In this document: one piece after another, positions 9,197 to 27,502 of the stretch
Layout of the letters: each line of letters starts with the position of its first letter
How positions within the stretch are numbered: the stretch's first letter is position 1
From: Minisyncoccia bacterium
GTDB taxonomy: Bacteria > Patescibacteriota > Minisyncoccia > Phycocordibacterales > DATDWN01
Assembly: GCA_049296855.1 (NCBI GenBank)
Contig: JBAQTF010000012.1
Location: forward strand, 1,939-65,938
Direction of reading: 5' to 3'
DNA length: 64,000 nucleotides
The notes under the pieces: generated by a model
Seen by the model: only the letters and a program-made list of their open reading frames with translations
Databases searched by the model: none
Told to the model about the DNA's origin: nothing
Made by a program: the position numbers and the translations under genes

Positions 9197-9197
9197 A

Positions 9198-12296: not shown

Positions 12297-12325
12297 TAAA
12301 AAAGCGTGGGACTTGCGTCCCACGC
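12297..12325 (-). terminator. Intrinsic terminator at the 3' end of the GC-rich HD gene
   Basis: On the minus strand: GCGTGGGAC-GCAA-GTCCCACGC followed by TTTTTT. It sits 26 nt downstream of the HD gene stop. Confidence 0.75.
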
Positions 12326-12350
12326 CTAATCTGTTTCCGATTGTTCGCCT

Positions 12351-13049: not shown

Positions 13050-13132
13050 CTCGACCCCCCTTTGAAAAAGGTTTTTACCTAGGAAAAGTTCTGTCTGGAC
13101 TCTATCACATTATTATAAAAAAGTCAAATATA

Positions 13133-14143
13133 TTATTTATACAACACTTTCTGCCACTCAATAGTTTTCTTTACCCCAACTTCTAGAGAAACGAAATCTT
13201 TTTTACCAAATTCGTTTTTAACTTTATCCAAATTTAAACTAACGTCTTCTGGTGCTCCAACCAGAGCTTGTTTTTCAGATTTAGGAATATTCACAGGCAC
13301 TTTTAAGTTTTTTCCAATAAGTTTAGCTAAATCAGCAATTGTCGTTCTGGAAATTCCTCCAACGTTATAGATATTGTCTTTTCCTTCTAAAAGTATTTTC
13401 CACATCATCCAGACTGCATCAGTAATATAACAGTATGTGCGGAGAGCCGAGCCGTCGTCCATCATGTTTATTTTCTTCTCTGTTAGAGCGCGGCCGATAA
13501 AAGAATTTAAAACACGCTTATCGTCTTTTTTTGTTCCGGGACCATAAGCTAAAGAAAGCCGCACAGATTTCGCATCTACTCCACTACTACGGAGGGTGGA
13601 GACAATAGCTTCACCACAGCGTTTGGCTTCTATGTAACATGAGCGTGGATGGTCTGTGTTTGTTGTACCGATTTCTGTCTCTTTGAAAGGTGGTTTCGAG
13701 AGTCCACTGTAGACTTCGCTTGTGCTCATGAATAAAAACTTTCCGCTATTATTTAATTTATCAAATAATTTCAAAGTGACAGCCGTGTTCATCTTTATGG
13801 TTTTTAGAGGGTTTTCCATAAATTTCCCTGGCTGACCATATCCTCCCGCATGAATAATAATGTCGGCTTTTGGTAATTTATTTACAAAATCATCATCGCA
13901 TAAGTCTCCCCCTATTACAGTAGCGTTTGCACCCTTAGATATTTCTTCCCAGTATTTTTCTGGTTTACTTTGGCAAACAGCATAAACTTTTACTCCGGTT
14001 TTTAAGAGTCCAGCTAGAAGATATGTTCCGACGAGTCCAGATGCTCCAGTAATCAAAACATTTTTGTTTTTTAATTGTGAAAAATCCACTCCTTTGATTG
14101 AACTTTTTGCGTCATCTATTATTATTTGGGCTAATTTATCCAT
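13133..14143 (-). CDS. NAD-dependent epimerase/dehydratase (SDR family)
   Basis: VLITGASGLVGTYLLAGLL Rossmann motif. Confidence 0.75.
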   Translation of the reverse strand: MDKLAQIIIDDAKSSIKGVDFSQLKNKNVLITGASGLVGTYLLAGLLKTGVKVYAVCQSKPEKYWEEISKGANATVIGGDLCDDDFVNKLPKADIIIHAGGYGQPGKFMENPLKTIKMNTAVTLKLFDKLNNSGKFLFMSTSEVYSGLSKPPFKETEIGTTNTDHPRSCYIEAKRCGEAIVSTLRSSGVDAKSVRLSLAYGPGTKKDDKRVLNSFIGRALTEKKINMMDDGSALRTYCYITDAVWMMWKILLEGKDNIYNVGGISRTTIADLAKLIGKNLKVPVNIPKSEKQALVGAPEDVSLNLDKVKNEFGKKDFVSLEVGVKKTIEWQKVLYK

Positions 14144-15017
14144 TGATTAGTTTCTTTAGTTTTTTATTTATTGCGTTAGGTGTCATTCCTAAATCCTTGT
14201 CGTGTTCTTCTGCTTTACCATATTTTGTCAGAAATCTTTTAGGCATACCAGCATGAACGATTTCAATAGCTTTTCCGGGAAAAGTATTTATCACGTCGGT
14301 GTCTAGTGCTCCTTCATAATAAGGTTCGCATATCAATATTTTATTTCCAGCGAGATTATTTTTTAGTGTCTTCGAGTCAAAAGGGAACAAGGTCGTGTAG
14401 TAAAGTATCGTTACATCTTCTTTTTCTGTCGCCTCTAGGACGGTTTTCAGCATTGGGCCAACAGCTATGACAGTAGCTTTTTTACCTTTTTTCACAACAT
14501 TCGCTTTACCGAATTTAACTTTTTTACTGTTTTCGTTCCCTCTCTCACTCAAACGAAAATAGGTTGGATTACCATCGGCGTAAGATTGTTTAAAAAGAGT
14601 GTCAAATTCCTCTGCTGTTCCCGGGACGATGATTTCCATTCCTGGGATATTTTTTAATATCGCAATGTCAGACGGACAGTGATGCGTTGCGCCAAGTGCT
14701 GCATAGTCATATGATGCACCGACACTGACAAAGTTTCCTCCGAGTTTCTGAAAAGCAAAATCTACTTTAATTTGCTCTAGTCCTCGTTCAACTATAAATG
14801 GGGTAATAGTGTGAACAACTGGTATTAAATTTGTTTTGGCCAGTCCTGCAGCTAGACTGATTGTTGCTTGTTCTAAGATCCCAATGTTATAAACTCGGGT
14901 GGGGTGTTTAGCGAAAGCATTTCTGAATCCAAATACACCAATATCTCCAAGTATCAAAACGAGTTTTTTGTCTTTATCTAGCACCTTCTCTAAAGTTTTT
15001 ACGAATTGTTTTCTCAT
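14136..15017 (-). CDS. Transketolase, C-terminal (pyrimidine-binding) subunit
   Basis: Transketolase Pyr domain and C-terminal domain. The gene is split from the upstream TPP-binding subunit. Confidence 0.75.
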   Translation of the reverse strand: MRKQFVKTLEKVLDKDKKLVLILGDIGVFGFRNAFAKHPTRVYNIGILEQATISLAAGLAKTNLIPVVHTITPFIVERGLEQIKVDFAFQKLGGNFVSVGASYDYAALGATHHCPSDIAILKNIPGMEIIVPGTAEEFDTLFKQSYADGNPTYFRLSERGNENSKKVKFGKANVVKKGKKATVIAVGPMLKTVLEATEKEDVTILYYTTLFPFDSKTLKNNLAGNKILICEPYYEGALDTDVINTFPGKAIEIVHAGMPKRFLTKYGKAEEHDKDLGMTPNAINKKLKKLING

Positions 15018-15030
15018 TATGTCTTTATAT

Positions 15031-15807
15031 CTAACTACTCAGTTCTTTCACAAGATTCTCGTACTCTTCTTTTGTTGGTGCTTTGTGGTGCCAAGCAGGA
15101 TTACCTTCCATAGTTTTACTTCCATAGCCTTTTATAGTTTCAGCTATTATGGCCAGTGGTTGTCCTATGTGAGGAGTTTTCAGTGCTTGATAAATCTCCT
15201 CTTGATTGTGACCACTAACTTTAATCACAACCCAATCAAATGACTTAAACTTTGATGCGATGTCACTCACAGACACAGCTCGGTCTGTCGAGTGGTTGTG
15301 ATCAACTATACAGATTAAGTTGTCTAATTTGTGATGACTGGCTAAAAGTGCTCCCTCCCAGACTGTACCCTCGTTACTTTCACCGTCGCCTATTATTGCA
15401 TAGACATTCGCTTTGTTTAGAGTGATTCGCATCCCTATAGCCATACCTACAGCAGTAGGGAAGCCATGACCAAGTGATCCAGTAGAAACTTCAACCCCAG
15501 GAACTTTTAGTGAATCTGGATGTCCACCAAGAATCCCTTCGAATTTTCCAAACGATTTCAAATGTTTTTTATGAAAAAATCCTTTGTCTGCGAGAATAGC
15601 ATACAAACCAAGAGAACCATGACCTTTGCTCAAAACGAATCTATCCCTTTTTGGATCGATTGGATTTTTCGGATTAAATTTTAAAACCTTGTCATATAGT
15701 ACGACCAATATATCCAAAATAGAAAAAGCACTAGGAATATGACCTTCTCCAGAGTTGTATGAAGCTTCAACTATTGAAATCTTTAGTTGGTTTATTCTAT
15801 CTTTCAT
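15031..15807 (-). CDS. Transketolase, N-terminal (thiamine-diphosphate-binding) subunit
   Basis: GHIPSAFS...GSLGHGFPTAVGMA...GDGESNEG is the TPP-binding transketolase signature. Confidence 0.8.
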   Translation of the reverse strand: MKDRINQLKISIVEASYNSGEGHIPSAFSILDILVVLYDKVLKFNPKNPIDPKRDRFVLSKGHGSLGLYAILADKGFFHKKHLKSFGKFEGILGGHPDSLKVPGVEVSTGSLGHGFPTAVGMAIGMRITLNKANVYAIIGDGESNEGTVWEGALLASHHKLDNLICIVDHNHSTDRAVSVSDIASKFKSFDWVVIKVSGHNQEEIYQALKTPHIGQPLAIIAETIKGYGSKTMEGNPAWHHKAPTKEEYENLVKELSS

Positions 15808-15812
15808 ATTTT

Positions 15813-17084
15813 CTATGAAATTTTTTCTGTTTTGTAATCCAATATGTTAGATACCTTACCCCAATATGCATCACCTTGTACAGGTTGTCTTGAGTTATTT
15901 TCGTTTGTTATTTCAATACTGATATCTTTTACTGTATCAACGCTACCTCTACCATCACTCAAATGTTTTAACCCAATATTTAGGAAAAGTACTCCGATTT
16001 GGAATAAATATGCTGGTATTTCAACACGAGTCCTGTATTTACCAGGTTCATAGTTCCTGTATCTACCTTCAATATCTCCTTCAGTAGAAAATAAAAGTAA
16101 TTCTCCTTGATAAAAGAAATATAAGAAAAGAAGTTTTTTTTCAAGTGGTTTACGTACTTCATAGTCAATCTCAATGGAGAATTTTTCTCCGATGGGTATT
16201 TGTGCTTGAGGTTTACCATCTTGACTTAAAATAGTTACTTTTTTAATTTGGCCTTCCAAAGTTTCTTTAGCCGGGTATTCTACGATTGAATTTAAAGTTC
16301 TTTCTACGTTAAGGTAGTAGTTCACTACTTCTGAGGTCTCGCCAAATTTAATCAACTCACCGTGTTTAAGCAAGATTGTCTTTGTACACAATCTTTCTAT
16401 AGCATCCAGATTGTGACTAACGAATATAATAGTTCTACCACCAGCCTTAGTAATATCGTCCATTTTCCCTAAACATTTTTTCTGAAATTCTGCGTCACCA
16501 ACAGCTAAAACCTCGTCGACAATTAAAATATCTGGTTCCATATGAGCTGCGACAGAGAAAGCAAGACGGACATACATTCCACTAGAATAATATTTAACTG
16601 GAGTATCAAGGAACTTTCTGACGCCAGAAAACTCGACTATTTCTTCAAACTTACCCGCCACTTCTTTTTTGGTCATTCCAAGAATAGCGCCGTTAAGAAA
16701 AATGTTTTCTCTTCCAGTTAATTCTGGATGGAAACCAGTGCCGACTTCAAGTAGTGAACCAACACGCCCACGGATTTTTATTTCTCCTGTGGTTGGTGGT
16801 GTGATTTGAGATAAAATTTTAAGTAAAGTAGATTTACCTGCACCATTTGGGCCTATAACTCCTATAATTTCTCCTTTTTTAATTGTAAGATTTAAACCTT
16901 TTACCGCCCAAAACTCTTCCTTTTTTTCAAATCCTATAATTGATATAGCTTTAACTTTCAGGAATTTTAATGGGGATTTTAGTATTGTCATTATGACATC
17001 TCGCAAGGCAACATAACCGCCACGCTCCCGTGTGATATCGTATTTTTTTCCTAAGTTTTTTATTTCAATTACATTGCCTTTCAT
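15813..17084 (-). CDS. ABC transporter ATP-binding protein, polysaccharide export (Wzt/TagH-like) with C-terminal extension
   Basis: Walker A motif GPNGAGKSTLLKIL plus ABC signature. There is a roughly 170-aa C-terminal extra domain, as in Wzt. Confidence 0.8.
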   Translation of the reverse strand: MKGNVIEIKNLGKKYDITRERGGYVALRDVIMTILKSPLKFLKVKAISIIGFEKKEEFWAVKGLNLTIKKGEIIGVIGPNGAGKSTLLKILSQITPPTTGEIKIRGRVGSLLEVGTGFHPELTGRENIFLNGAILGMTKKEVAGKFEEIVEFSGVRKFLDTPVKYYSSGMYVRLAFSVAAHMEPDILIVDEVLAVGDAEFQKKCLGKMDDITKAGGRTIIFVSHNLDAIERLCTKTILLKHGELIKFGETSEVVNYYLNVERTLNSIVEYPAKETLEGQIKKVTILSQDGKPQAQIPIGEKFSIEIDYEVRKPLEKKLLFLYFFYQGELLLFSTEGDIEGRYRNYEPGKYRTRVEIPAYLFQIGVLFLNIGLKHLSDGRGSVDTVKDISIEITNENNSRQPVQGDAYWGKVSNILDYKTEKIS

Positions 17085-17101
17085 ATTTTTCTTTAATATT
17101 T

Positions 17102-17998
17102 TTACAGGACATCAGCAAAATATCTCTCAGTCTTTTTAAAAACATATACACCAAAGATCATTAACACAGTTGTACCAGCAAGAGAAATTGATATAAGAAT
17201 CCAATTTATAGGAGCTGTCCCTAGGATGGCCGCTCGGGCACTTTGTATCACCCCCATCATTGGGTTAAGAGCTAAAATCCAAGAATATTTTCCCGCGATA
17301 CTTGCTGGATAAATAACTGGAGTTAAAAACATTAATATTTGAATAAAAAATGGCAAAACATATCGAACATCTCTGTATTTTACATTGATTGCTGATAAGA
17401 ATAATCCACTACCAACAGATGCCATAAAAGTAATTATTAATAGAAGGGGTAGAATCAATAGACCAGATAGGTGAGGAACATATCCATAATAAAACATAAG
17501 TCCGATTAGAATAATGGTAGCAACAGCAAAATCAATTAACTTTGTGATTACCGAGGAAACTGGCAAAATCAGTCTAGGAAAATATACTTTAGTTATTATG
17601 GCCTGGTTACTTGTTAGTGCACTACTAGTATCTCCAAGAGCACTGGAGAAAAATTGCCAAAACAGAAGACCGACATAAACAAAAATAGGATAGGGGACCC
17701 CATCCGATGGCATTTTAGCTAGGCCTCCGAAAAACACAGAAAAAACCACCATTGTTATAAAGGGTTGGAAGATAGCCCAAGCAACACCTATAAATGTTTG
17801 TTTATATCGTACTTTAAGATCTCTCCATGTAAAAAAATATAGGAGCTCTTTATAACGCCAAATTTCTCGGAAATCCTCTAGACTGAAGGTTTTCTTAGGT
17901 TTTATGACAGTTTCTCTAAGGGTATTGGGTTGAGTCATATTTTGAGCAGTATAACAGAAAAACCACTTTTTTTCTATTTTTTCTAAAAGTAGAATCAA
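17102..17998 (-). CDS. ABC-2 type polysaccharide exporter permease (Wzm/TagG-like)
   Basis: Six predicted TM helices and an ABC-2 family pattern. The true start may be the internal MTQPNTL. Confidence 0.75.
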   Translation of the reverse strand: MILLLEKIEKKWFFCYTAQNMTQPNTLRETVIKPKKTFSLEDFREIWRYKELLYFFTWRDLKVRYKQTFIGVAWAIFQPFITMVVFSVFFGGLAKMPSDGVPYPIFVYVGLLFWQFFSSALGDTSSALTSNQAIITKVYFPRLILPVSSVITKLIDFAVATIILIGLMFYYGYVPHLSGLLILPLLLIITFMASVGSGLFLSAINVKYRDVRYVLPFFIQILMFLTPVIYPASIAGKYSWILALNPMMGVIQSARAAILGTAPINWILISISLAGTTVLMIFGVYVFKKTERYFADVL

Positions 17999-18960
17999 TT
18001 CAAATTTTTTGAATGATTATTGATATACCAGTTAATTGTCTTCCTTAATCCTGTTTCAAAGTCTATTTTTGAGACAAATCCAAACTCTTTTTTAGCTTTA
18101 CTTACATCAAGTTTTCGTCTTGGCTGACCATCTGGTTTCGTCTTGTCCCAAACTACTTTTCCATTAAACCCCACAATTTTTGAAATAATTTTTACCAAAT
18201 CTTTTATTTTTATTTCAAAATTACTCCCAATATTTATTGGACGAGAGTCATTATGTTTTATGGTTGCTAGAACGATAGCTCTCGCTGCATCATCTACATA
18301 TAAAAATTCTCGACTGGCTTTTCCTGTGCCCCACACAACGACTTCAGATTTATTTTGTCCCTTTGCTTCGACAAAGCGTTTAATCAGAGCTGGTATTACA
18401 TGTGAATGATCGGGATGAAAATTGTCTCCAGGTCCATAAAGGTTTACACATACTGGATTTATACCATTAAAGCCATATTGTTGTCTGTATGCTTCTAACT
18501 GAACAACGAGCATTTTTTTCGCCAATCCATAAGGAGCGTTGGTTTCTTCTGGATAACCTATCCAAATGTCTTCTTCTCTAAATGGTATTCTAATCGGTAT
18601 TTTGGGGTAAGCGCAAACGGTTCCAACTTGAACAAATTTTTTCACCTTTGCTTTTCGAGCTTCTTCTATCAAATGGATTCCCATCACTGCATTATCATAA
18701 AACAATGTCCCAGGAAATTTTTTATTGAAACCAATACCTCCAACTGTCGCCGCCAAATGGATGATAATATCTTTTTCTTTCACTGCTTTTTCACAATTTT
18801 TTTGAATTCTCAAATCTAGTTCTTTACTTCGCGGACGAAAAATATTTTTTTCTTTTGCTCCATTACGAATCAATTCATTAAAAACAGTTTGACCAAGAAA
18901 GCCGTGACCACCAGTTAGTAGTATTTTTGAGTTTTTTAAATCTATTTCATCTTTTTTCAT
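17995..18960 (-). CDS. fcl: GDP-L-fucose synthase (GDP-4-keto-6-deoxy-D-mannose 3,5-epimerase-4-reductase)
   Basis: [12 protein letters not shown]...HLAATVGGI...GTVCAYPK motifs of Fcl/WcaG. Confidence 0.85.
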
Positions 18961-19990
18961 CTTTTTCTTTTTCTAGATCAGCTTCAGTCATTATTTTTAC
19001 TAATTCTTTAAATTTGACTTTAGGTTTCCATCCAAGATTTTTTCGAGCTTTGCTATAGTCTCCTAGCAATAAATCTACTTCAGCTGGACGAAAATACAAT
19101 GGATCAATCTCCACGATAATTTTTCCTGTTTTTTTATCTATGCCTTTTTCTTTTACACCCTTTCCCTTCCATATAATATCCATGCCCAATATTTTTGCAG
19201 ACTCTTCGACGAACTCTCTTACAGAGTGGGTTTCATTTGTTGCTAATATATAGTCTCCAGGTTTTTTTGCTTGAAGCATAAGCCACATACCATAAACGTA
19301 ATCTTTTGCGTAACCCCAATCTCTTTTTGCATCGAGATTCCCTAAATATAATTTTTCGTCAATACCTAACTTTACCCTAGATAAACCCCTTGTAATTTTT
19401 CTGGTGACAAATGTTTCTCCACGTCTAGGAGATTCATGATTAAACAAGATTCCGTTTACTGCAAACATGTTGTAACTTTCTCTGTAGTTTTTTGTTATCC
19501 AATATGCGTAAACTTTTGCTACTCCATATGGTGAGCGTGGATGGAACATGCTAGTTTCCTTGAGTGGTATCTCTGCCGCTTGACCAAACATTTCACTCGA
19601 AGAAGCTTGGTAGAATCTTGTTTTGTCCAATCCAACTTGTCTCATAGTATCAAGAATTCTAAGAGTCCCAAGTCCCGTAACACCTCCTGTATATTCTGGA
19701 AGATCAAAACTAACTTTAACATGGCTTTGGGCTCCAAGATGATAGATTTCGTCCGGTTTAACTTTTGCAAGTATTCTAGTGAGGCTATTCCCATCAGATA
19801 AGTCTCCGTAATGGAGATGTAGTCGACTTCTCCTCTCGTGCGGGTCTTTATATATGTGGTTTATTCTAGCAGTGTTAAAAGAACTAGATCGACGAATAAT
19901 ACCATGTACCTCGTAACCTTTGTCTAAAAGTAATTCAGTCAGATAAGAGCCATCTTGACCAGTGATACCTGTAATTAAGGCTTTTTTCAT
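18947..19990 (-). CDS. gmd: GDP-mannose 4,6-dehydratase
   Basis: N-terminus [43 protein letters not shown] is highly characteristic of Gmd. Confidence 0.9.
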
Positions 19991-20075: not shown

Positions 20076-22259
20076 GTGTCTATCATGAATTTAAAAAATA
20101 TTTTTAAGTATGCAGTAATTGGGGGTTTGTTTCTAACTCCGTTCATAGCTTTCATTGTGCCTAGTGCGATGTTTTTTCCTTTCATATCTGGAAAGGGATT
20201 TACTTTTAGGATTTTATCAGAGATTCTATTCGGTTTATTCGTTATCCTGGCTTTTATAGATGTGGAGTATAGACCAAAACTTTCTTGGATCACCAAAGCC
20301 GTTTTGAGTTTTGTTTTTATAATGTTAATTGCTGATCTTCTAGGGGTTAATCCTTACAAGAGTCTTTGGAGTAATTATGAACGAATGGAAGGTTTTGTTT
20401 TACTGATTCACCTAGCTATGTATTATATAGTGCTGTCTTCGGTGTTAAAAACTAAATCACTTTGGAACTATTTTTTCAATACCTCAATTCTGGCAAGTGT
20501 TCTCATGTCTATATACGGAGTCTTCCAACTTTTAGGTAAGGCTACTATTAACCAAGGAGGTGTTCGAGTTGATGCCACTTTTGGTAACGCTTCTTATCTG
20601 GCTATATATCTTGTTTTTCATATTTTTCTCTGTTTGTATTTATTAGTGGATGAATCTTGTAAAAAATGGTTGAAATGGACTTATGGAGTAATTATTTTAT
20701 TAGAGACTGTTATATTGTATTTTACTGCTACCAGAGGTGCTATTCTCGGTCTTATCGGAGGACTACTTCTCACAGGACTACTTCTTGCATGGAAGGAAAG
20801 AGAAAATAAAACATTGCGAAAGGTTGCTTTTGGAGTTGTTGGGGGAGTAGCAGTTTTCATTTTTGGATTTATTCTTCTACGCAACACATCAGTTGTTCAA
20901 AGTAGCCCAGTTTTGTCTAGATTTTCAAATCTTGGGTTTTCGGAGTTTAAAACTCAAGGAAGATATTTTGTTTGGCCAATGGCTATATCGGGTATAAAAG
21001 AGCATCCGATACTTGGTTGGGGACAGGAAAATTTTAACTTCGTTTTTAATAAATACTACAATCCTGGAATTTTTGGTCAGGAAGAGTGGTTTGATCGAAC
21101 ACATGATTTAGTGTTGGATTGGCTTATTGCTGGAGGTATTTTAGGATTTATTTTTTACGTCGGGATTTATGTCGCTCTGTTCTATTATATATGGAGAAGG
21201 AAGAATGTCATGAAAATCTCTGAAAAGGGAATTCTAACTGGAATGGTTTTGGCTTACGTCTTCCATAATCTATTCGTTTTCGATAACCTTATCAGCTATA
21301 TAATATTTTTCTCTATTATTTCTTATGTACATTGGTATAGTACTGCGGATAATAAGACAGTAGGTAATTATTACACAAAAACGTTTTCTGATGAAGTCAC
21401 AAATTATGTTATTTTACCTATCGTGACAGTTCTCACTATTGGTATGGTCTACTTTGTGAATATTCCTGCTTTAAGTGCAAATCAAACTCTTATACAGGCT
21501 ATTTCTCCACAAAAAGAAGGAGTAGAAAAAAACCTGAGCTTATTTAACCAAACTTTCAGTTATGACTCATTTGGTTCAACAGAAGCAATCGAACAGTTAG
21601 TTACAGTGACAAATCAAATTATGTCGTCACAGTTTCCCGCTGAAATAAAACAAAAATTCATTGATTTAACAAAAAAGAAAATTGAAGAAAAAGTAGCTCA
21701 AGTACCAAAAGACGCTCGCTACCTAGTTTTTGCTGGTAGTTTTTTCAATCGTCTTGGACAATATGATGAAGCAATAAAATATTTGGAACGTGCTTTGGTT
21801 GAATCACCAAAGAAGCAAACAATTTATTTTGAGTTGGGTACTTCTTATATGGTTAAAGGCGATTATAAAAAAATGATGGAGTTATTTAAGACAGCATATG
21901 ACTTTAAGCCAGGAGCTCAGGATGCACAGGTGATGTACGCAGTTGGCGCGATTTATGCAAAAGACAACACAGTTTTAACTGAACTCTTGCCAAAAATAAA
22001 TCAAGAAGTAGTGATCTCTGATAATAGATTTTTAAAAGCATATGCTGATACCGGTAGTTATAACTCTGTTATAACCATTCTTTCTCTTAGATTACAAAAA
22101 GATCCGACGAACACTCAAAATAAACTATCTCTCGCCTCTACGTATGCCACAATAGGTCAGAAACAAAAGGCTATAGATATTCTTCGTGAGATGATTGCTG
22201 CCGATCCGAAATTCAAAGACCAAGGCGAACAATATATAAAGGAGGTGGAAAAGAGTTAA
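20076..22259 (+). CDS. Polytopic membrane protein of the O-antigen ligase/polymerase (Wzy_C-like) family with C-terminal TPR repeats
   Basis: About 12 TM helices, with a large loop FVWPMAISGIKEHPILGWGQENF typical of the O-antigen ligase family. C-terminal TPR-like repeats. Confidence 0.6.
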   Translation: MSIMNLKNIFKYAVIGGLFLTPFIAFIVPSAMFFPFISGKGFTFRILSEILFGLFVILAFIDVEYRPKLSWITKAVLSFVFIMLIADLLGVNPYKSLWSNYERMEGFVLLIHLAMYYIVLSSVLKTKSLWNYFFNTSILASVLMSIYGVFQLLGKATINQGGVRVDATFGNASYLAIYLVFHIFLCLYLLVDESCKKWLKWTYGVIILLETVILYFTATRGAILGLIGGLLLTGLLLAWKERENKTLRKVAFGVVGGVAVFIFGFILLRNTSVVQSSPVLSRFSNLGFSEFKTQGRYFVWPMAISGIKEHPILGWGQENFNFVFNKYYNPGIFGQEEWFDRTHDLVLDWLIAGGILGFIFYVGIYVALFYYIWRRKNVMKISEKGILTGMVLAYVFHNLFVFDNLISYIIFFSIISYVHWYSTADNKTVGNYYTKTFSDEVTNYVILPIVTVLTIGMVYFVNIPALSANQTLIQAISPQKEGVEKNLSLFNQTFSYDSFGSTEAIEQLVTVTNQIMSSQFPAEIKQKFIDLTKKKIEEKVAQVPKDARYLVFAGSFFNRLGQYDEAIKYLERALVESPKKQTIYFELGTSYMVKGDYKKMMELFKTAYDFKPGAQDAQVMYAVGAIYAKDNTVLTELLPKINQEVVISDNRFLKAYADTGSYNSVITILSLRLQKDPTNTQNKLSLASTYATIGQKQKAIDILREMIAADPKFKDQGEQYIKEVEKS

Positions 22260-22261
22260 TT

Positions 22262-22384
22262 TGCATTAACTCTGTATATGTGGTACCATATGTGCGTGAG
22301 TGCGCAATGCAGGACGGCTCAGCTGGAATGCAGGTAAGCTCACGAACGAATGTATTACAAGGCCGCCTTCGGGCGGTTTTGTAT
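22262..22384 (+). ncRNA. Candidate structured small RNA or structured 3' UTR ending in a rho-independent terminator
   Basis: A locally GC-rich segment in an AT-rich gap. Duplicated AATGCAGG motifs at 22306-22313 and 22327-22334. Terminal hairpin GCCGCC-UUCG-GGCGG followed by UUUU at 22361-22384. Confidence 0.4.
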
Positions 22385-22572
22385 AAAAACTTCCAGATTT
22401 GGCCAATCTCACCGTCTAAAATTCTCACAAAATTCTCACTGTACGACTTGTACGCCTCGGATTCTGATTCGAATTCTATACGCGACCTTGTCTAAAATCT
22501 GAAAGTTTTTGTAGTTTTCCATATCATTGAGATTTTTTCACATATTAAGTATTATTAATACAATCTTTTGTT

Positions 22573-22643
22573 CCGATAGATGGTTAGCGGTTCGCACTCA
22601 CGTATACATTCGTTGGAGTAAGCCATCGCTAACCATCTATCGG
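22573..22643. repeat. Perfect 17-bp inverted repeat (CCGATAGATGGTTAGCG / CGCTAACCATCTATCGG) enclosing a 37-nt GC-rich loop
   Basis: Read directly from the sequence. Loop segments at 22593-22602 and 22604-22614 are exact reverse complements of 22295-22304 and 22345-22355. Confidence 0.7.
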
Positions 22644-22929
22644 CGCAATTCTCAGTAATAAAAAATTTAAATTTTATTGAACACATTTTTTTGGAGGCTC
22701 TCGGACTGTGACGGTGTAAGAGTGGGTAAAATTTTCTCAAAAAATTTATACGTGCTCAAAAAAATAAATGTTGAGAAAAAATTTAAATTTTAAAAAGTTA
22801 TCCACACTTTTCTCAAAAAAATATTTATTTTATTCTTTTCTGTACTATAATCAATCTAGGTCGCAATAACCAATTTAAAAATAATTTTAATTTAATTATT
22901 TATCACAGAATAATTAACTAATAAACATT

Positions 22930-22992
22930 ATGGCAAAAAAGAAAAAAGCAAAGAAAGCAAAAAAAGCAAAGAAAACAAAGAAACGAGCATAG
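22930..22992 (+). CDS. Possible 20-aa lysine-rich micro-ORF (MAKKKKAKKAKKAKKTKKRA)
   Basis: ATG...TAG ORF over an (AAAGCAAAGAA)n-like simple repeat. No ribosome-binding site, though host genes generally lack one. Confidence 0.2.
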   Translation: MAKKKKAKKAKKAKKTKKRA

Positions 22993-23068
22993 TCTCACTT
23001 TGTTTCGAAAAAATCACAATAAAATTATTGGTTGATTTCAAAAATCTATTTAATATAGGTTTTTGTTT

Positions 23069-23082
23069 TTTTATGCTATAAT
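23069..23082 (+). promoter_or_regulatory. Extended -10 promoter (TGcTATAAT) for secA
   Basis: TGCTATAAT lies 14 nt upstream of the proposed secA ATG at 23096. Confidence 0.45.
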
Positions 23083-23095
23083 CCTGTTTATATTT

Positions 23096-25618
23096 ATGTC
23101 GATTTTTTCTTCATTATTTGGTTCTGAATCTGGTAAAATTTTGAAAGAAATAGAACCTATAGTTTCAAAAATAAACTCTCTAGAGAGCGGCATTTCTTCG
23201 TTATCTGACGAAGAATTAAAAGGGAAGACAATTGAGTTCAAAAAACGTTTAGCAGAAGATGAAACACTAGATTCGATTTTACCAGAAGCGTTTGCAGTTG
23301 TGAGGGAAGCTTCGAAAAGATGTCACAATGAACGTCATTTTGATGTTCAACTTATGGGGGCAATTTTATTACATCGAGGAAGTATTTCTGAAATGAGAAC
23401 TGGGGAAGGTAAAACTCTTGTCGCTACTTTACCAGCATACCTCAATAGTTTAACAGGGCTTGGTGTTCACATTGTTACTGTTAACGACTATCTTTCAAAA
23501 CGTGATGCGGTTTGGATGGGAGAGATTTATTCTTTTTTAGGAGTTTCAGTTGGTGTCATAAATCATGAAGAGTCATTTATATATGATCCGACGCATACGA
23601 AAGAATATGAGCAACTGGATAAAAAAAGAGATGAGGTAGGTTCGTTTAAAGTTGTAAACGAATTTCTTCGATCTGTAACGCGCCGTGAGGCATACCATGC
23701 TGATATTACTTATGGTACGAACAATGAGTTTGGCTTTGATTATTTGAGAGACAATATTGAATATGAGGAAGCTAGGTTGCGACAACGCGAACCAAACTAC
23801 GCTATTGTTGACGAGATTGACTCCATTTTGATTGACGAGGCCAGAACTCCGCTTATTATTTCTGCACCTACGACTGATTCTGACGAGTTGTACGTAAAAT
23901 TTGCTGAAATATCCAAGAAACTAGAAAAAGGTGAGCATTATACGATAGATGAGAAATTTAGAACGATTGCTTTAACTGATTCTGGAATAAGTTATGCCGA
24001 GGAGATACTTAATGTTGGGAATATTTATACGGAAAAAGGTATAAAATACGTCCATCATCTAGAAACGGCGATAAGAGCGACTGCTTTATTTAGTAAAGAT
24101 AAAGATTACGTCGTAAAAGACGGTGAAATCATTATCGTCGACGAGTTTACTGGACGACTCCAGCCTGGACGAAGGTGGTCAGAGGGTCTACATCAGGCAA
24201 TCGAAGCAAAAGAGCATGTACCAATCCAAAAAGAATCAAAAACATTTGCTTCAATCACTTTCCAAAACTATTTTAGACTTTATAAAAAACTTGCCGGTAT
24301 GACTGGTACTGCAGCCACGTCATCTGAGGAGTTTTACAAGGTTTATGGTCTGCATGTGATTTCTATTCCAACAAATAAACCTATAAATCGTAAAGATCAC
24401 AACGATCTTATTTTCCAAACCGAAGTCGGTAAATTTAAAGCTATAGCAAAAGAAGTCAAAGAGCGTCATAAAAATGGACAGCCTGTGCTTATTGGTACGG
24501 TTTCAATCGAGAAGAATGAAATGCTTTCAGAATTTTTACGTACAGAAGGTATTCCACATGAAATTCTTAACGCAAAAAATCACGGAAGGGAAGGTGAGAT
24601 AATTGCTCAAGCAGGAAGGGTTGGTGCAGTAACTATCGCAACAAACATGGCTGGTCGTGGAGTGGATGTAAGGCTCGGGGGTAATCCTGGAACGAAAGAG
24701 TTGTACGAAGAGGTAAAATCTCGAGGAGGTTTGTTTGTTTTAGGCACGGAGCGTCATGATGCACGCAGGATAGACAATCAGCTCCGAGGTAGATCTGGAA
24801 GACAGGGCGATCCAGGTGGGACTCAGTTTTTCGTTTCTCTTGATGATCATCTGATGCGAGTCTTTGGAGGGGATTCTATTAAAAACATGATGGGTAAACT
24901 CGGTATAAAAGAGGATGAACCTATTGAGAATCGCCTTATTACTAAATCCCTGGAAAGCGCACAGGAAAAAATAGAAGGATTTAATTTTGACGCCAGAAAA
25001 CATGTCTTAGAGTTCGACGACGTTTTGAATTATCAGAGAAAAATATTCTATGGAAGGAGACGAGATGTGTTGTTGGGTGATGATAGTGTTTTGAAGGCTT
25101 ATATAGAAGAATTATTAACTGAAAGTAATGATTCTGAAAGGGCAAAAATTCAAGATAGACTCTCTAAGTCTGATAAAGATTATCTGGAAACTCTTCGTCG
25201 AGTAATACTACAAGCTATGGATATGTACTGGGTCGAACATTTGGAAGTAATGGATTACATGAGAGCTTCTGTAAATCTACGTGCTTATGGCCAGAGGGAT
25301 CCATTGGTTGAATATAAACGTGAAGGGTTAAAGTTGTTTAAAAACATGGAAATGTCTATCGGACAGGAGATTTTGAAACTTATTCCTCAAGTACAATCAG
25401 GAGCATTGTATGTTGATGCACCGGTTAAACTGACTCTAGGTATGCAAGATTCTGAAAAGATAAATGCAGGAGCTCCTAAAAGTATTGTAGTGGATCGTAC
25501 TGCGGGTGGAGAGAAAATGGGTAGAAACGATCCATGTTTCTGTGGTTCTGGTAAAAAATACAAGAAATGTGGAGAGATTAATAGCGAAGAGCATCAAAAA
25601 ATGATGCAAAGTAAGTAA
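23096..25618 (+). CDS. secA: Preprotein translocase ATPase SecA
   Basis: SecA DEAD-motor motifs and a C-terminal zinc-binding CFCGSGKKYKKC tail. The ORF-track start at 23063 is a TTG upstream of the putative promoter. The ATG at 23096 is preferred. Confidence 0.9.
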   Translation: MSIFSSLFGSESGKILKEIEPIVSKINSLESGISSLSDEELKGKTIEFKKRLAEDETLDSILPEAFAVVREASKRCHNERHFDVQLMGAILLHRGSISEMRTGEGKTLVATLPAYLNSLTGLGVHIVTVNDYLSKRDAVWMGEIYSFLGVSVGVINHEESFIYDPTHTKEYEQLDKKRDEVGSFKVVNEFLRSVTRREAYHADITYGTNNEFGFDYLRDNIEYEEARLRQREPNYAIVDEIDSILIDEARTPLIISAPTTDSDELYVKFAEISKKLEKGEHYTIDEKFRTIALTDSGISYAEEILNVGNIYTEKGIKYVHHLETAIRATALFSKDKDYVVKDGEIIIVDEFTGRLQPGRRWSEGLHQAIEAKEHVPIQKESKTFASITFQNYFRLYKKLAGMTGTAATSSEEFYKVYGLHVISIPTNKPINRKDHNDLIFQTEVGKFKAIAKEVKERHKNGQPVLIGTVSIEKNEMLSEFLRTEGIPHEILNAKNHGREGEIIAQAGRVGAVTIATNMAGRGVDVRLGGNPGTKELYEEVKSRGGLFVLGTERHDARRIDNQLRGRSGRQGDPGGTQFFVSLDDHLMRVFGGDSIKNMMGKLGIKEDEPIENRLITKSLESAQEKIEGFNFDARKHVLEFDDVLNYQRKIFYGRRRDVLLGDDSVLKAYIEELLTESNDSERAKIQDRLSKSDKDYLETLRRVILQAMDMYWVEHLEVMDYMRASVNLRAYGQRDPLVEYKREGLKLFKNMEMSIGQEILKLIPQVQSGALYVDAPVKLTLGMQDSEKINAGAPKSIVVDRTAGGEKMGRNDPCFCGSGKKYKKCGEINSEEHQKMMQSK

Positions 25619-25656
25619 TTTATGATATTATCTTCGTTATATAATCTTTTAAACAA

Positions 25657-26040
25657 ATGAAAAAATATCTTTATATTATCGCGATTTTAATAGTAATATC
25701 TGGTGTTGTTTGGTTAATAATGACTCCTGGTAAACCAGGTAAATTGGATGCTTTTGCTCAGTGTATAAAGGACAAAGGAGCGATATTTTATGGCGCTTTC
25801 TGGTGTCCACATTGTCAGGCACAAAAGGCTCGTTTTGGTAAATCTGCTAAATTACTTCCATATGTAGAGTGCTCGACTCCAGACGGTAAAGATCAACTAC
25901 AGGTTTGTAAGGATTTGAGCATAAATACTTATCCGACATGGTATTTTGCAAGTAGTACTTCCGACAAGAAAGATGTCGTTACTGGAGAAATAGAGCTAGT
26001 AGATCTAGCTCTAAAAACAAGCTGTCCTTTGGTACAATAA
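25657..26040 (+). CDS. Membrane-anchored thioredoxin-fold protein (DsbA-like, CPHC active site)
   Basis: N-terminal TM segment followed by FYGAFWCPHCQAQK ... YPTWYF. Confidence 0.65.
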   Translation: MKKYLYIIAILIVISGVVWLIMTPGKPGKLDAFAQCIKDKGAIFYGAFWCPHCQAQKARFGKSAKLLPYVECSTPDGKDQLQVCKDLSINTYPTWYFASSTSDKKDVVTGEIELVDLALKTSCPLVQ

Positions 26041-26052
26041 GACCGTAATAGT

Positions 26053-26616
26053 ATGACGTCTTTTATTCAAACAAACACCACTTATATTATTGGATTTTTA
26101 ACTTTAATATCCAATATTATTTTTGTCGTAGTTTTGATGATTATTCTTATTCATGCAGATTCTCGAAAACATCTGTATAATTTTGTGCACAAATATATTT
26201 TGGAGCTACTCTTTTGGGGTATTTTGTCAGCTGTAGTCGGAAGTTTGATTTACTCAGACATTGTTGGTTTTCCACCATGTGATTTATGTTGGTATCAGAG
26301 AATATGCATGTATCCACAACTGATAATAGTGTTAATGGCTATGTATAAAAAAGACAAGACAGTAATCGACTATCTCGTTCCGTTTTCTGTTATCGGTGCA
26401 ATTATTGCTTTATATCAATCATTTATCCAATGGGGATTTTCTTTCGGTCTAACAGGAGGTTGTGTTGCTCTTGGTGGTGAATGTGCAAAGGTCTACTTTA
26501 CCGAGTATTCCTATATCACCATACCTTTTATGTCTTTCACAGTCTTTGTCTATATCATAACTCTTAAATTAGTCTATTATCATAAAGATTGGAAATTAAA
26601 AAATGGGAGAGAATAA
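26053..26616 (+). CDS. Disulfide bond formation protein B (DsbB/BdbC family)
   Basis: Four TM helices. PPCDLCWYQRICMYP matches the BdbC/DsbB signature. Confidence 0.75.
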   Translation: MTSFIQTNTTYIIGFLTLISNIIFVVVLMIILIHADSRKHLYNFVHKYILELLFWGILSAVVGSLIYSDIVGFPPCDLCWYQRICMYPQLIIVLMAMYKKDKTVIDYLVPFSVIGAIIALYQSFIQWGFSFGLTGGCVALGGECAKVYFTEYSYITIPFMSFTVFVYIITLKLVYYHKDWKLKNGRE

Positions 26617-27502
26617 AGTAAAAATCGTAACTCATAATGCTAATTTCCACGCAGATGATATTTTTGCTGTCGCTACACTTTCTTTGGTTTTAGAAAATGA
26701 AGAAAAGGAATTTTCTATAACTCGTTCTCGTGATATGGATGTGATAGAAAAAGGTGATTACGTTGTAGACGTTGGTGGTATCCACGATCCAAATACTAAC
26801 CGTTTCGACCATCATCAGGAAGGCGGAGCGGGAAAAAGGGATAATACAGTTCCGTATGCTTCCTTCGGATTAGTTTGGAAGAAGTTTGGGGAAAAGCTTT
26901 GTGGAAGTTCTGAAATTTCTCAAAAAATTGATCAAATTCTTATACAGTGGATTGATGCCACAGACAATGGTGTTCAAGTTGTTGAAACAAAGATTCCTGG
27001 TATTTATCCTTATGACATCGGTCTTTTCTTCAATGCTTTTACCCCGGACTGGAAAGAAGGCAAGGATAATATTGATAGTGTTTTTATGGAAACAGTTTCA
27101 ATAGCCAAGGTGGTTTTAGGGAGAGAAATATTAAAAAGAAAAAATTTATTCGAAGCTTCTAGTATTGTTGAAGAGATATACAAGAATAGCGTTGATAAGA
27201 GGCTTGTTATTTTCGATAGGTATTATCCATCAACGGAATTTTTAGCCAAATTCCCAGAGCCACTTTTTACAGTTTTTCCCAGAGATGATGGCACTTGGGC
27301 TATTAAAGTAATAAGAAATGATGACCATTCATTTGTTTCGCGTAAAAATCTACCAGAAAGTTGGGCAGGTAAGGTTGGAGTAGAATTAGAAAAGGCAACT
27401 GAAGTCCCGGGTTCAGTTTTCTGTCATTCCGGTAGATTTATGGTTGTAGCTAAAACAAAAGAAGCAATACTCAAATTAGCTGAGATAGCTTTAAATTCTT
27501 AG
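26603..27502 (+). CDS. MYG1/UPF0160 family metal-dependent hydrolase
   Basis: THNANFHADD...VDVGG...DHHQ motifs. Confidence 0.7.
   Translation: MGENKVKIVTHNANFHADDIFAVATLSLVLENEEKEFSITRSRDMDVIEKGDYVVDVGGIHDPNTNRFDHHQEGGAGKRDNTVPYASFGLVWKKFGEKLCGSSEISQKIDQILIQWIDATDNGVQVVETKIPGIYPYDIGLFFNAFTPDWKEGKDNIDSVFMETVSIAKVVLGREILKRKNLFEASSIVEEIYKNSVDKRLVIFDRYYPSTEFLAKFPEPLFTVFPRDDGTWAIKVIRNDDHSFVSRKNLPESWAGKVGVELEKATEVPGSVFCHSGRFMVVAKTKEAILKLAEIALNS

What the first reader, a model, noticed from the sequence alone, without database searches (positions are those of the whole stretch)
22262..22643. Two GC-rich structured non-coding elements with reciprocal complementarity in the 800 bp gap upstream of secA
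Element A (22262-22384) carries duplicated AATGCAGG motifs and ends in a UUCG-tetraloop terminator. Element B (22573-22643) is a perfect 17-bp inverted repeat with a 37-nt loop.

Two adjacent loop segments of B (22593-22602 CGCACTCACG and 22604-22614 ATACATTCGTT) are exact reverse complements of two separated segments of A (22295-22304 and 22345-22355). Two 10-11-nt matches are far beyond chance in 64 kb.

This suggests one of three things: an sRNA/antisense pair with a kissing-type RNA-RNA interaction, a type I/III TA-like RNA module, or degenerate terminal inverted repeats of a decayed small mobile element.
Basis: seen in the sequence. Interest (0 to 1): 0.6.

Follow-up and report, generated by a model that had tools for sequence, protein, structure and literature searches.

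The report
Co-evolving small-RNA gene pair upstream of secA
Two neighbouring non-coding genes in an uncultivated (Patescibacteria) bacterium appear to make small RNAs that bind each other at two sites; 13 related genomes keep this fit through matching mutations, and no RNA family in Rfam matches either one.

Summary
The 17-bp inverted repeat of B and both exact reverse-complement matches between A and B's loop are at the stated coordinates, and shuffling never reproduced two such matches.

Comparative data settle what kind of thing this is. Thirteen independent loci from Zambryskibacteria-like Patescibacteria (SecA identity down to 64%) carry one A and one B. Six syntenic relatives lack both.

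- **Gene A:** it has a conserved promoter (TTGCAT-N17-TGnTATGAT) that places the start at GUGRGUGCG, a conserved hairpin, a CA-rich stretch and a terminator.
- **Gene B:** it has its own promoter and a 22-bp stem (97% paired, 13 of 22 pairs with compensatory changes). The stem presents a loop complementary to A's 5' end and to A's CA-rich stretch.
- **Pairing between them:** the two helices are 96% paired across loci, with double compensatory changes at 3 pairs. The core has 14 G·U wobbles and no A·C.
- **Orientation:** in two loci gene A is inverted relative to B, yet the RNA-level complementarity is kept.

This rules out decayed transposon ends and a single-transcript structure. I found no conserved ORF and no tandem repeats, so a type I or type III toxin-antitoxin module is not supported.

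Best reading: a dedicated pair of trans-acting small RNAs that bind and antagonise each other. The function and any other targets are unknown. Rfam, phage and plasmid searches found nothing.

The parts
22261..22289 (+). Promoter of gene A: -35 TTGCAT (22261-22266), 17-nt spacer, extended -10 TGgTACCAT (22281-22289).
   Evidence: The same architecture is found in all 13 loci: TTGC[AGT]T (TTGTGT in L029), N17, then TGnTATGAT, TATAAT or TACAAT, with 6-7 nt to GTGRGTG. This is a prediction from sequence. There are no transcript data.
22296..22304 (+). Y, the predicted 5'-terminal 9 nt of RNA A (GUGAGUGCG). It pairs with B at 22593-22601.
   Evidence: The match is exact in the window. Across 13 loci, pairs 1-8 are paired in 13 of 13, with 7 G·U wobbles and no A·C.
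22308..22332 (+). H1, the conserved internal hairpin of A: UGCA-GGA-CGGC-UCA-GCUG-GAA-UGCA.
   Evidence: RNAalifold and pair counts on alignment A2 give 8 pairs, 100% paired, 3 with changes on both sides. In L020 and L029 it is replaced by a shorter hairpin.
22338..22343 (+). Anti-Y (GCUCAC). In free A it pairs with the first 6 nt of Y.
   Evidence: Seen in the MFE fold. An equivalent helix in the relatives is 83% paired, in a slightly different register. The support is weak.
22345..22355 (+). X, a CA-rich single-stranded segment of A (AACGAAUGUAU). It pairs with B at 22604-22614.
   Evidence: The match is exact in the window (I12). Across loci the helix is 9-12 bp, with double compensatory changes at 3 pairs: G-C/A-U at two and C-G/A-U at one. 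Cognate pairs bind better than non-cognate pairs (permutation p about 2.5e-4).
22357..22382 (+). Intrinsic terminator of A: GGCCGCC-UUCG-GGCGG followed by UUUU.
   Evidence: Seen in the fold. A GC-rich hairpin plus T-run sits at the same place in all 13 A sequences (read). The simple scanner did not call it.
22382..22513 (.). Spacer insert between A and B. It is not part of the pair: 19-nt inverted-repeat ends (22382-22400 / 22495-22513) enclose about 94 nt.
   Evidence: Inverted repeat I3. It is homologous only to the spacer of L022. Most of the other loci have a much shorter A-B gap with nothing like it (one search finds its end motif only in the window's own copies and in L022/L028; gap lengths follow from the coordinates).
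22537..22564 (+). Promoter-like site of gene B: TTCACA, 16 nt, TACAAT.
   Evidence: Promoter scan. In all 13 loci my reading of the upstream sequences finds a -10-like hexamer a few nt, up to about 10, upstream of the base of the stem. This is a prediction only.
22568..22648 (+). RNA B core: long stem P1 (22568-22590 with 22626-22648) closing a 35-nt loop.
   Evidence: Model R1 scores 97.8 bits on the + strand and 40.1 on the - strand. P1 has 22 pairs, 97.3% paired, 13 with compensatory changes. None of 500 shuffles reached this.
22593..22601 (+). Y' (CGCACUCAC) in B's loop, complementary to A's 5' end. It is invariant in all 13 loci.
   Evidence: In free B it can also pair with GUUGGAG (99% paired, one covarying pair G-C:6 / A-U:5).
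22604..22615 (+). X' (AUACAUUCGUUG) in B's loop, complementary to A's X. Its 5' part varies between lineages and co-varies with A.
22615..22626 (+). GGAG and the small hairpin P2 region of B (GGAGG-UUCG-CUUCC in most relatives; weak in the window).
   Evidence: Read from alignment A1. GGAG is invariant. P2 competes with the top two pairs of P1 and with the intra-loop helix, so it is not resolved.

Best explanation
A and B are two separate small-RNA genes. Their transcripts bind each other, and that mutual binding is the main thing selection maintains.

**RNA A** (about 85-90 nt in the window, 22296 to about 22382) starts at GUGAGUGCG (Y). It carries a conserved hairpin (H1) and then a single-stranded CA-rich stretch (X), and it ends in an intrinsic terminator.

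**RNA B** (about 85-125 nt, starting near 22568) is a 22-bp clamp stem. Its loop presents Y' and X' side by side.

**Proposed binding pathway (inferred).**
1. In free A, Y is partly closed by an anti-Y segment.
2. In free B, Y' is partly closed by GUUGGAG, which leaves the variable part of X' in an apical loop.
3. A's open X segment first meets that loop.
4. The helix zips into GUUG and frees CUCAC.
5. CUCAC then captures A's 5' end.

**Resulting complex.** It has two helices of 9 and 9-12 bp on one continuous stretch of B. A's 5' terminus lies next to the junction between X and the terminator.

**Proposed consequence (inferred).** Both of A's exposed pairing segments and its 5' end are sequestered, so one RNA titrates or destabilises the other, as in an sRNA and its dedicated antagonist. 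RNase III could cleave the roughly 20-bp composite duplex.

**Shown by sequence comparison:** the gene architecture, the structures, the intermolecular co-variation and the strand assignment.

**Not shown:** transcription, the order of binding steps, which partner is the effector, and any downstream target.
For: - **Occurrence:** thirteen independent loci carry exactly one A and one B. Six syntenic relatives with 79-82% SecA identity lack both.
- **A's promoter:** it is conserved, with a fixed 6-7 nt between the -10 element and GUG, so Y lies at the predicted 5' end.
- **Terminators:** hairpins follow A in all loci and follow B in most.
- **B's stem P1:** 97.3% paired, with 13 of 22 pairs showing compensatory changes.
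- **Intermolecular helices:** 20 pairs, 95.8% paired against 25-50% when the register is slid. Three pairs carry changes on both sides (9 cells). None of 500 shuffles reached the covariation score.
- **Strand assignment:** the core helices contain 14 G·U or U·G cells and no A·C cells. This fits RNA-RNA pairing only for the strands proposed.
- **Inversion:** gene A is on the opposite DNA strand from B in L020 and L026, yet RNA A still complements RNA B.
- **Pair specificity:** cognate A:B pairs bind better than shuffled pairings (p about 2.5e-4).
- **Energetics:** estimated net binding after paying the opening costs is -7 to -15 kcal/mol in 12 of 12 pairs.
- **A dedicated partner:** X changes between lineages and B compensates, which argues for a dedicated partner rather than a hub sRNA with many targets.
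Against: - There are no expression data, so both promoters and both transcripts are predictions.
- The terminator after B is weak or unclear in the window, L006 and L026.
- Only 12-13 sequences are available and they fall into a few clades. The double changes may therefore reflect few independent events, and the shuffle controls overstate significance for related sequences.
- Y' and the flanking UAGCGG/CCGCUA and GUUGGAG are invariant. This points to constraints beyond A binding, such as a protein or a third RNA, that the model does not explain.
- No mRNA target was found within the 64 kb or the fetched loci.
- Standard cofolding cannot represent the loop-mediated complex and returns no interaction, so the energies come from my own additive estimate.
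Confidence: 0.6

Rival explanations
1. A and B are the two pieces of one functional RNA or RNP. They act as a complex rather than one regulating the other. Once A is bound, B's multiloop becomes a four-way junction (P1, the Y helix, the X helix, P2) that could be recognised by a protein or have an activity of its own.
For: - A and B are strictly present together or absent together.
- Several blocks are invariant although A:B pairing does not require them: UAGCGG/CCGCUA at the top of P1, GGU before Y', GGAG, and the ACAGGAUUGC...GCAAUAAUGUA hairpin of A.
- On B, the two helices are separated by only 1-5 nt.
Against: - A's hairpin H1 is missing in L020 and L029 while the pairing is kept, so at least that module is dispensable.
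- No Rfam family resembles either piece.
- No candidate partner protein is consistently adjacent. Beyond the Wzy_C/TPR gene and secA, the neighbours differ between loci.
- The pair is absent from close relatives, so it is not an essential housekeeping RNA.
Confidence: 0.2
2. The pair is an RNA-only addiction or toxin-antitoxin-like module, in the sense of type VIII systems. One RNA is harmful unless the other neutralises it, which would explain the strict co-occurrence and the lineage-specific pairing specificity.
For: - Both genes are present together or absent together, with a patchy distribution among close relatives.
- The specificity segment X/X' diverges and co-varies as the recognition loops of antisense-controlled systems do.
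- There is no protein component.
Against: - There is one copy per locus, at a fixed chromosomal position, and it persists across relatives down to 64% SecA identity. This looks like vertical inheritance with losses, not a selfish mobile module.
- There were no copies in the phage, plasmid or viral collections.
- No toxic mechanism can be read from the sequence.
Confidence: 0.1
3. A and B are parts of a single cis-acting structure in one long transcript: the 3' UTR of the Wzy_C/TPR gene or the 5' leader of secA. Y/Y' and X/X' would then be long-range intramolecular pairings.
For: - In the window and most loci there is no terminator between the Wzy_C/TPR stop codon (22259) and A, so read-through into A is likely.
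- In 11 of the 13 loci A and B are on the same strand.
Against: - A ends in a strong terminator hairpin in every locus.
- B has its own promoter-like site.
- In L020 and L026, A is on the opposite strand from B and from secA.
- In L022 and L025, 3.8-5 kb of other genes separate the Wzy_C/TPR gene from A.
- The A-B spacer ranges from about 40 to about 190 nt and is AT-rich (coordinates; sequences).
Confidence: 0.03
4. The complementarity is a DNA-level relic: terminal inverted repeats of a decayed miniature transposon, a recombination site, or a remnant of a coding duplication.
For: - B is a long perfect palindrome and A/B share inverted 10-11-mers.
- Related genomes have the locus either 'filled' or 'empty'.
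Against: - There is one copy per locus and none elsewhere in the 64 kb at up to 3 mismatches.
- The strict pattern hit once per genome in the genome collection.
- The relative DNA orientation of the repeats flips in two loci while the transcript-level complementarity stays.
- The substitutions are G·U-compatible only at the RNA level.
- Neither element gave a Pfam hit for its ORFs.
Confidence: 0.02

Closest known systems
sRNA with a dedicated antagonist RNA ('anti-sRNA' or sponge), e.g. AgvB against GcvB in EHEC (PMC4104026)
   Same: One small RNA binds the pairing region of another and would block it. Both are short, terminator-ended transcripts. The decoy presents a sequence complementary to the partner's seed.
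   Different: - AgvB mimics the mRNA targets of a hub sRNA, is prophage-encoded and depends on Hfq.
- Here the two genes are chromosomal neighbours.
- The pairing is bipartite (5' end plus an internal segment).
- The pairing sequence itself drifts and co-varies, so no external target set seems to fix it.
- I did not test whether this organism has Hfq.
CJnc190/CJnc180 of Campylobacter jejuni: an sRNA and its antagonist processed by RNase III (PMC8687705)
   Same: This is a two-RNA locus in which one RNA antagonises the other. CJnc190 processing runs through an intramolecular duplex. RNase III acts on the duplexes.
   Different: - CJnc180 and CJnc190 are cis-encoded on opposite strands, so they are fully complementary over the overlap.
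- A and B do not overlap. They are complementary only at two short segments and keep that complementarity whichever DNA strand A lies on.
- RNase III involvement here is only a guess, based on the helix lengths.
Kissing-loop antisense control systems: CopA/CopT of R1, RNA I/RNA II of ColE1, and RNA I/RNA II of the par locus of pAD1 (from my own knowledge, not checked here)
   Same: A structured RNA presents a loop that nucleates binding to a partner. Binding then spreads to a second segment. Recognition sequences diverge between related systems while staying complementary within each pair.
   Different: - Those systems are plasmid-borne and cis- or convergently encoded, and they control replication or a toxin ORF.
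- Here there is no ORF, no plasmid and no overlap.
- The order of the two complementary segments is the same in both RNAs, so the helices cross and place A's 5' end at the helix junction.
Yfr1/Yfr2 small RNAs of marine cyanobacteria (from my own knowledge, not checked here)
   Same: Two conserved small RNAs in streamlined genomes are proposed to bind each other, with one sequestering the other through a conserved single-stranded motif flanked by stems.
   Different: The sequences, structures and phylum are unrelated. The Yfr genes are not an adjacent, strictly co-occurring pair, and Yfr1 has identified mRNA targets.

Membership tests
Any Rfam 15 family | A score at or near a family's gathering threshold | tested here: not met
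   The gathering-threshold scan of the whole window found only 4 tRNAs. The permissive scan of 22150-23150 gave three chance-level hits (16-17 bits against thresholds of 50-130). ARAGORN found no tRNA or tmRNA here.
Type I toxin-antitoxin | A small conserved toxin ORF in the mRNA that the antisense RNA targets | tested here: not met
   There is no conserved reading frame. The AUG in A's X segment is AUA in L021 and L029. In B, the apparent start in P1 is missing in L020 and L026, and the loop linker varies by 1-5 nt, which breaks the frame. Pfam gave no hit for the local ORFs.
Type III toxin-antitoxin (ToxIN-like) | Tandem repeats of an antitoxin RNA unit upstream of a protein endoribonuclease toxin gene | tested here: not met
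   The repeat search found no tandem array in 22200-22700. The flanking genes are a Wzy_C/TPR protein and SecA.
Type VIII (RNA toxin with RNA antitoxin) | Both components are RNAs and one is growth-inhibitory | not testable with these tools
   Both components appear non-coding (see above), but toxicity cannot be assessed from sequence. No CRISPR-like repeat is present in the gap, as a CreA-type antitoxin would need.
MITE or decayed transposon ends | Several dispersed copies, with terminal inverted repeats in a fixed inverted DNA orientation | tested here: not met
   It is single-copy in the window and in every locus. The strict pattern gave one hit per genome. Orientation flips in L020 and L026. 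No phage, plasmid or viral copies were found. Complete carrier genomes could not be scanned with the models.
Trans-encoded base-pairing sRNA pair (sRNA plus antagonist) | Two independent transcription units | tested here: inconclusive
   A has a conserved sigma-70-type promoter and terminator in 13 of 13 loci. B has a -10-like element in all 13 and a terminator hairpin in most. No transcript data are available.
Trans-encoded base-pairing sRNA pair (sRNA plus antagonist) | Conserved intermolecular complementarity maintained by compensatory change | tested here: met
   There are 20 pairs, 95.8% paired, 3 with double changes, and G·U wobbles only on the proposed strands. Cognate pairs bind better than non-cognate pairs.
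Trans-encoded base-pairing sRNA pair (sRNA plus antagonist) | An mRNA target whose regulation the antagonist relieves | tested here: inconclusive
   Duplex scans of the 64 kb and motif scans of the fetched loci found nothing above background. Most of each genome was not available.
H/ACA-like guide pocket (considered because two separated guide segments bind one contiguous stretch) | The 5' guide strand pairs with the 3' half of the target and the 3' guide strand with the 5' half, with the upper hairpin at the junction | tested here: not met
   Here A's 5' segment pairs with the 5' half of B's site and A's 3' segment with the 3' half (coordinates). The hairpin therefore bridges the outer ends, and A's 5' end sits at the junction.

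The most novel reading that the evidence does not exclude
The A:B complex may be a two-piece RNA device rather than a regulator and its antagonist. B would act as a splint. It lays A's 5'-triphosphate end next to the nucleotide that follows X, 1-5 nt apart on B, and so closes A into a pseudo-circle within a four-way junction. Such geometry could serve RNA end-joining or circularisation, 5'-end protection or sensing, or recruitment of a dedicated protein. This would be a class of bipartite RNA not yet described, in bacteria with very reduced genomes.
Probability: 0.12. Interest if true: 0.85.

Novelty: new variant of a known kind. Interest (0 to 1): 0.62.

Why it matters
Almost nothing is known about RNA-based regulation in Patescibacteria (CPR). 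These are uncultivated, mostly episymbiotic bacteria with tiny genomes. My literature searches found no paper on base-pairing small RNAs in this group.

The co-variation evidence for RNA-RNA binding here is unusually direct for an uncharacterised pair:
- compensatory changes between two separate genes;
- wobble pairs that fit only one strand choice;
- survival of the complementarity when one gene is inverted.

If the pair is confirmed, it would give two new RNA families. It would also give a clean natural example of a dedicated, co-evolving sRNA pair with a crossed bipartite interface. Its fixed position next to the secA upstream region and an O-antigen-ligase-like gene offers a handle on what it controls. 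The pairing rules can be tested in vitro without cultivating the organism.

Tried and rejected
- **Known RNA families:** the Rfam gathering and permissive scans and ARAGORN found nothing. By eye I also rejected SRP RNA, tmRNA (including two-piece forms), 6S RNA, RNase P RNA, hammerhead or twister ribozymes, the group II intron 5' end (GUGYG), T-arm-like motifs and CsrA-binding GGA hairpins. None of their defining motifs or architectures is present. These are judgements from memory, not tests.
- **Exact-protein look-up with the ORF-list start of the upstream gene:** this failed, and a wrong frame for secA gave an error. Using secA from ATG 23096 worked.
- **RNAcofold of A plus B:** it returned no interaction because it cannot model loop-mediated (pseudoknot-type) complexes. 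I replaced it with constrained folds plus duplex energies.
- **Target search:** scanning the 64 kb with A's seeds and B's loop gave only background-level hits. One weak hit in the 3' coding end of the Wzy_C/TPR gene (near 22176) scored no better than other background hits in that scan, and I saw no equivalent match when I compared that region by eye in three relatives.
- **Similarity to the leader of the K-rich ORF:** a resemblance in L009 to X/X' is not shared by the other loci.
- **Spacer between A and B:** I suspected it holds a decayed gene for a four-helix-bundle ('23S rRNA IVS') protein. The translations are broken in both the window and L022, with no convincing frame. I did not pursue this.
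- **Replication origin idea:** GC skew changes sign near 20 kb, but so does gene orientation. The gap holds only one perfect DnaA box, so the origin idea stays open.
- **Chance hits in the pattern scans:** hits in Gemmatimonadetes contigs, one GC-rich metagenome contig and three viral contigs lie in GC-rich coding sequence, with no hairpin and no A element.
- **Phage and plasmid BLAST:** no match.
- **NCBIfam on the K-rich peptides:** no match.
Full report

- B is a perfect 17-bp inverted repeat (22573-22589 / 22627-22643) with 37 nt between the arms. It extends to 22 nt at 91%.
- Two neighbouring loop segments of B are exact reverse complements of two separated segments of A. B 22593-22602 (CGCACTCACG) matches A 22295-22304. 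B 22604-22614 (ATACATTCGTT) matches A 22345-22355.
- In 200,000 shuffles of the loop, one 10-mer match arose 464 times and two matches never. No other 37-nt window of the 64 kb gave two matches.
- Both elements fold much better than shuffled controls (z = -4.1 for A, -9.3 for B on the + strand).
- The two complementary segments occur in the same 5'-to-3' order in A and in B. They therefore cannot form one ordinary duplex, and the two helices cross.

**Context and source.** The window is contig JBAQUU010000002.1 of MAG GCA_049297715.1, labelled Minisyncoccia bacterium (Patescibacteria/CPR). The gap lies between a Wzy_C (O-antigen-ligase-like) plus TPR membrane protein (20076-22259) and SecA (23096-25618). 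No gene is called in the gap. Rfam 15 finds nothing there at gathering or permissive thresholds, and ARAGORN finds no tRNA or tmRNA.

**Relatives.** I collected loci in three ways:

- fetching the loci of the closest SecA homologues;
- scanning the genome collection for a pattern taken from B's loop;
- scanning the metagenome collection with a relaxed pattern.

Thirteen independent loci carry both elements: the window, L006, L009 (=L010/L019), L016 (=L030), L017 (=L024), L018, L020, L021 (=L023), L022 (=L028), L025 (B cut by the end of the locus), L026, L029 and L036. Hits in GC-rich Gemmatimonadetes, one other metagenome contig and three viral contigs are chance matches inside coding sequence.

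Six syntenic loci with 79-82% SecA identity (L003, L007, L011, L013, L034, L037) have short gaps with neither element. Covariance models built from the alignments find exactly one A and one B in each positive locus. They find none in the empty loci and none elsewhere in the window.

The carriers reach down to 64% SecA identity (L020) and 39% identity of the upstream protein (L029). The pair is therefore old in this lineage and has been lost repeatedly. In L022 and L025, 3.8-5 kb of other genes lie between the Wzy_C/TPR gene and A. The pair therefore stays with the secA side. In L029 it precedes what reads as murB (my reading of the N-terminal translation; not checked against a family library).

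**Two genes, not one element.** Upstream of A, all 13 loci have TTGCAT (or a close variant), a 17-nt spacer and an extended -10 (TGnTATGAT, TATAAT or TACAAT). A constant 6-7 nt follows before GTGRGTG. This places the predicted start at G22296 and makes Y the 5' end of the RNA. A GC-rich hairpin with a T-run follows A in every locus.

B is preceded by a -10-like element just upstream of the base of its stem in all loci. In most loci it is followed by its own terminator hairpin. That terminator is weak or unclear in the window, L006 and L026.

Decisively, in L020 and L026 gene A, with its promoter and terminator, lies on the opposite DNA strand from B. Even so, RNA A as defined by those signals remains complementary to RNA B. 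A DNA-level inverted repeat would not survive that change, but an RNA-RNA interface does.

**Structures.**

- *B's stem P1:* it has 22 pairs that are 97.3% paired across 12 distinct sequences. Thirteen pairs carry changes on both sides. None of 500 shuffles reaches the observed values, and slid registers drop to 34-53% paired.
- *A's internal hairpin H1:* it is 100% paired with some compensatory change. The window's 'duplicated AATGCAGG' is simply its two strands. H1 is replaced by a shorter hairpin in L020 and L029.
- *Free A:* Y can pair with a segment just upstream of X. This is 83% paired with a shifted register in the window, so the support is weak.
- *Free B:* CUCAC(G/A) of Y' can pair with (C/U)GUUGGAG. 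This helix is 99% paired. One pair switches between G-C (6 sequences) and A-U (5 sequences) and the rest are invariant.

**The intermolecular interface.** I placed the four segments in register and counted pairs.

| Helix | Paired cells | Variation |
|---|---|---|
| Y:Y' | Pairs 1-8 paired in 13 of 13 loci | A-to-G at position 4 in six loci and C-to-U at position 8 in one, all giving G·U or U·G |
| X:X' core | Core positions paired in 11-13 of 13 loci | One pair G-C:7, A-U:4, G·U:2; one G-C:9, A-U:2, G·U:2; one C-G:6, A-U:3 |

- Over 20 pairs, 95.8% of cells are paired, against 25-50% in slid registers. No shuffle reaches the observed covariation score.
- The core helices hold 14 G·U or U·G cells and no A·C cell. 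This fits pairing only between the transcripts of the strands proposed.
- Cognate A:B pairs give better X-helix energies than permuted pairings (p about 2.5e-4).
- A rough energy balance (opening cost of both RNAs plus the two duplexes) is favourable in all 12 complete pairs, at -7 to -15 kcal/mol.
- Caveat: the sequences form a few clades, so the number of independent substitution events is small, and the shuffle controls are generous to related sequences.

**Mechanism I consider most likely.** A and B are small RNAs whose main selected property is binding each other.

- A has the layout of a base-pairing sRNA: a 5'-terminal seed, a CA-rich open seed and an intrinsic terminator.
- B is a clamp that displays the complements of both seeds side by side.
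- In free B, the variable part of X' sits in the apical loop while Y' is partly self-paired. In free A, X is single-stranded while Y is partly closed.
- I therefore infer that X meets the B loop first. The helix then extends into GUUG and releases CUCAC, which captures A's 5' end.
- In the complex, A's 5' end lies next to the junction between X and the terminator, 1-5 nt away along B.
- The outcome would be mutual sequestration, and perhaps RNase III cleavage, since P1 and the composite helix are each about two helical turns.
- X drifts and B follows, so the pair looks dedicated rather than part of a large target network.

The architecture, the structures and the co-variation are shown by comparison. 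Transcription, the order of events, the effector role and the biological output are inferred or unknown.

**Rivals.**

- *Two-piece functional RNA or RNP (about 0.2):* this fits the invariant blocks that pairing does not explain (UAGCGG/CCGCUA, GGAG, the H1 sequence).
- *RNA-only toxin-antitoxin-like module (about 0.1):* this fits the strict co-occurrence and patchy distribution. The fixed chromosomal position and absence from mobile-element collections argue for vertical descent.
- *Single cis-acting transcript:* the inverted loci, the terminators and the inserted genes contradict it.
- *Transposon-end or duplication relics:* copy number, orientation flips and RNA-specific wobble contradict them.

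**Comparison with known systems.** The closest functional analogues are sRNA/anti-sRNA pairs such as AgvB-GcvB (PMC4104026) and the CJnc190/CJnc180 pair with RNase III processing (PMC8687705). From my own knowledge, kissing-loop antisense systems and Yfr1/Yfr2 are also close.

The pair differs from all of these in four ways:
- it is trans-encoded but adjacent;
- its two genes strictly co-occur;
- it has no ORF;
- its interface is bipartite, with the segments in the same order in both RNAs.

It is not a member of any Rfam family. It fails the defining features of type I and type III toxin-antitoxin systems, of MITEs and of H/ACA-like pockets (see the membership table). Three literature searches found nothing on base-pairing sRNAs in CPR bacteria.

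**Verdict.** This is a real, conserved and apparently undescribed pair of small-RNA genes. I rate it a new variant of a known kind, with interest 0.62. The score is limited mainly by the lack of any expression data or known output.

Noticed in passing
window 22798-22806 (context 22650-22860); also L003, L006, L007, L009, L011, L013, L017, L018, L020, L021, L022, L026, L036: A perfect DnaA box (TTATCCACA, usually as AAAGTTATCCACACTTTT) sits in a very AT-rich stretch (19-29% GC) just upstream of the promoter of the small K-rich ORF. It is kept in almost every relative, with or without A/B. L006 has a second, inverted box next to it. GC skew changes sign near 20-22 kb, but gene orientation flips there too. 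This may be a DnaA-regulated promoter or lie near the replication origin; that is unresolved.
   Followed up: partly
window 22930-22992 (+); homologous ORFs in L003, L006, L007, L009, L011, L013, L036: A tiny lysine-rich ORF (MAKKKKAKKAKKAKKTKKRA, 15-26 aa in relatives) is conserved between the DnaA box and secA. It has its own TACTATAAT promoter and a conserved AGGTCGGAA leader. In several relatives a terminator-like hairpin follows it before the secA promoter. NCBIfam gives no match. It could be a small basic (ribosome-associated?) protein or a regulatory leader peptide for secA.
   Followed up: partly
window 22382-22513; L022 about 5050-5215 (minus strand): In the window and in L022 only, the spacer between A and B holds an extra insert of about 130 nt. 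It has 19-nt inverted-repeat ends (TATAAAAACTTCCAGATTT / AAATCTGAAAGTTTTTGTA) and an inner hairpin that co-varies (GUAC-GACUU-GUAC against UUUAC-GACAA-GUAAA). It also contains a tandem AAAATTCTCAC repeat (22418-22439). I found no convincing reading frame. It may be a third small structured element or a miniature insertion.
   Followed up: partly
window 22275-22296: In the window only, the -10 region of A's promoter lies inside a near-perfect palindrome (GTATATGTGGTACCATATGTGC). This could be an operator, or a hairpin in read-through transcripts from the upstream gene.
   Followed up: no
window 351-19990 (minus strand) against 20076-27502 (plus strand): Twenty consecutive minus-strand genes end at a GDP-mannose 4,6-dehydratase gene, the only one of them I annotated. 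They diverge at about 20.0 kb from the Wzy_C/TPR-secA-thioredoxin-DsbB block. This point coincides with the minimum of cumulative GC skew.
   Followed up: no
L022 and L025, between the Wzy_C/TPR gene and A: In these two relatives, 3.8-5 kb of additional genes are inserted between the Wzy_C/TPR gene and the A/B pair. This suggests the intergenic region is a hotspot for insertions. I did not examine the inserted genes.
   Followed up: no
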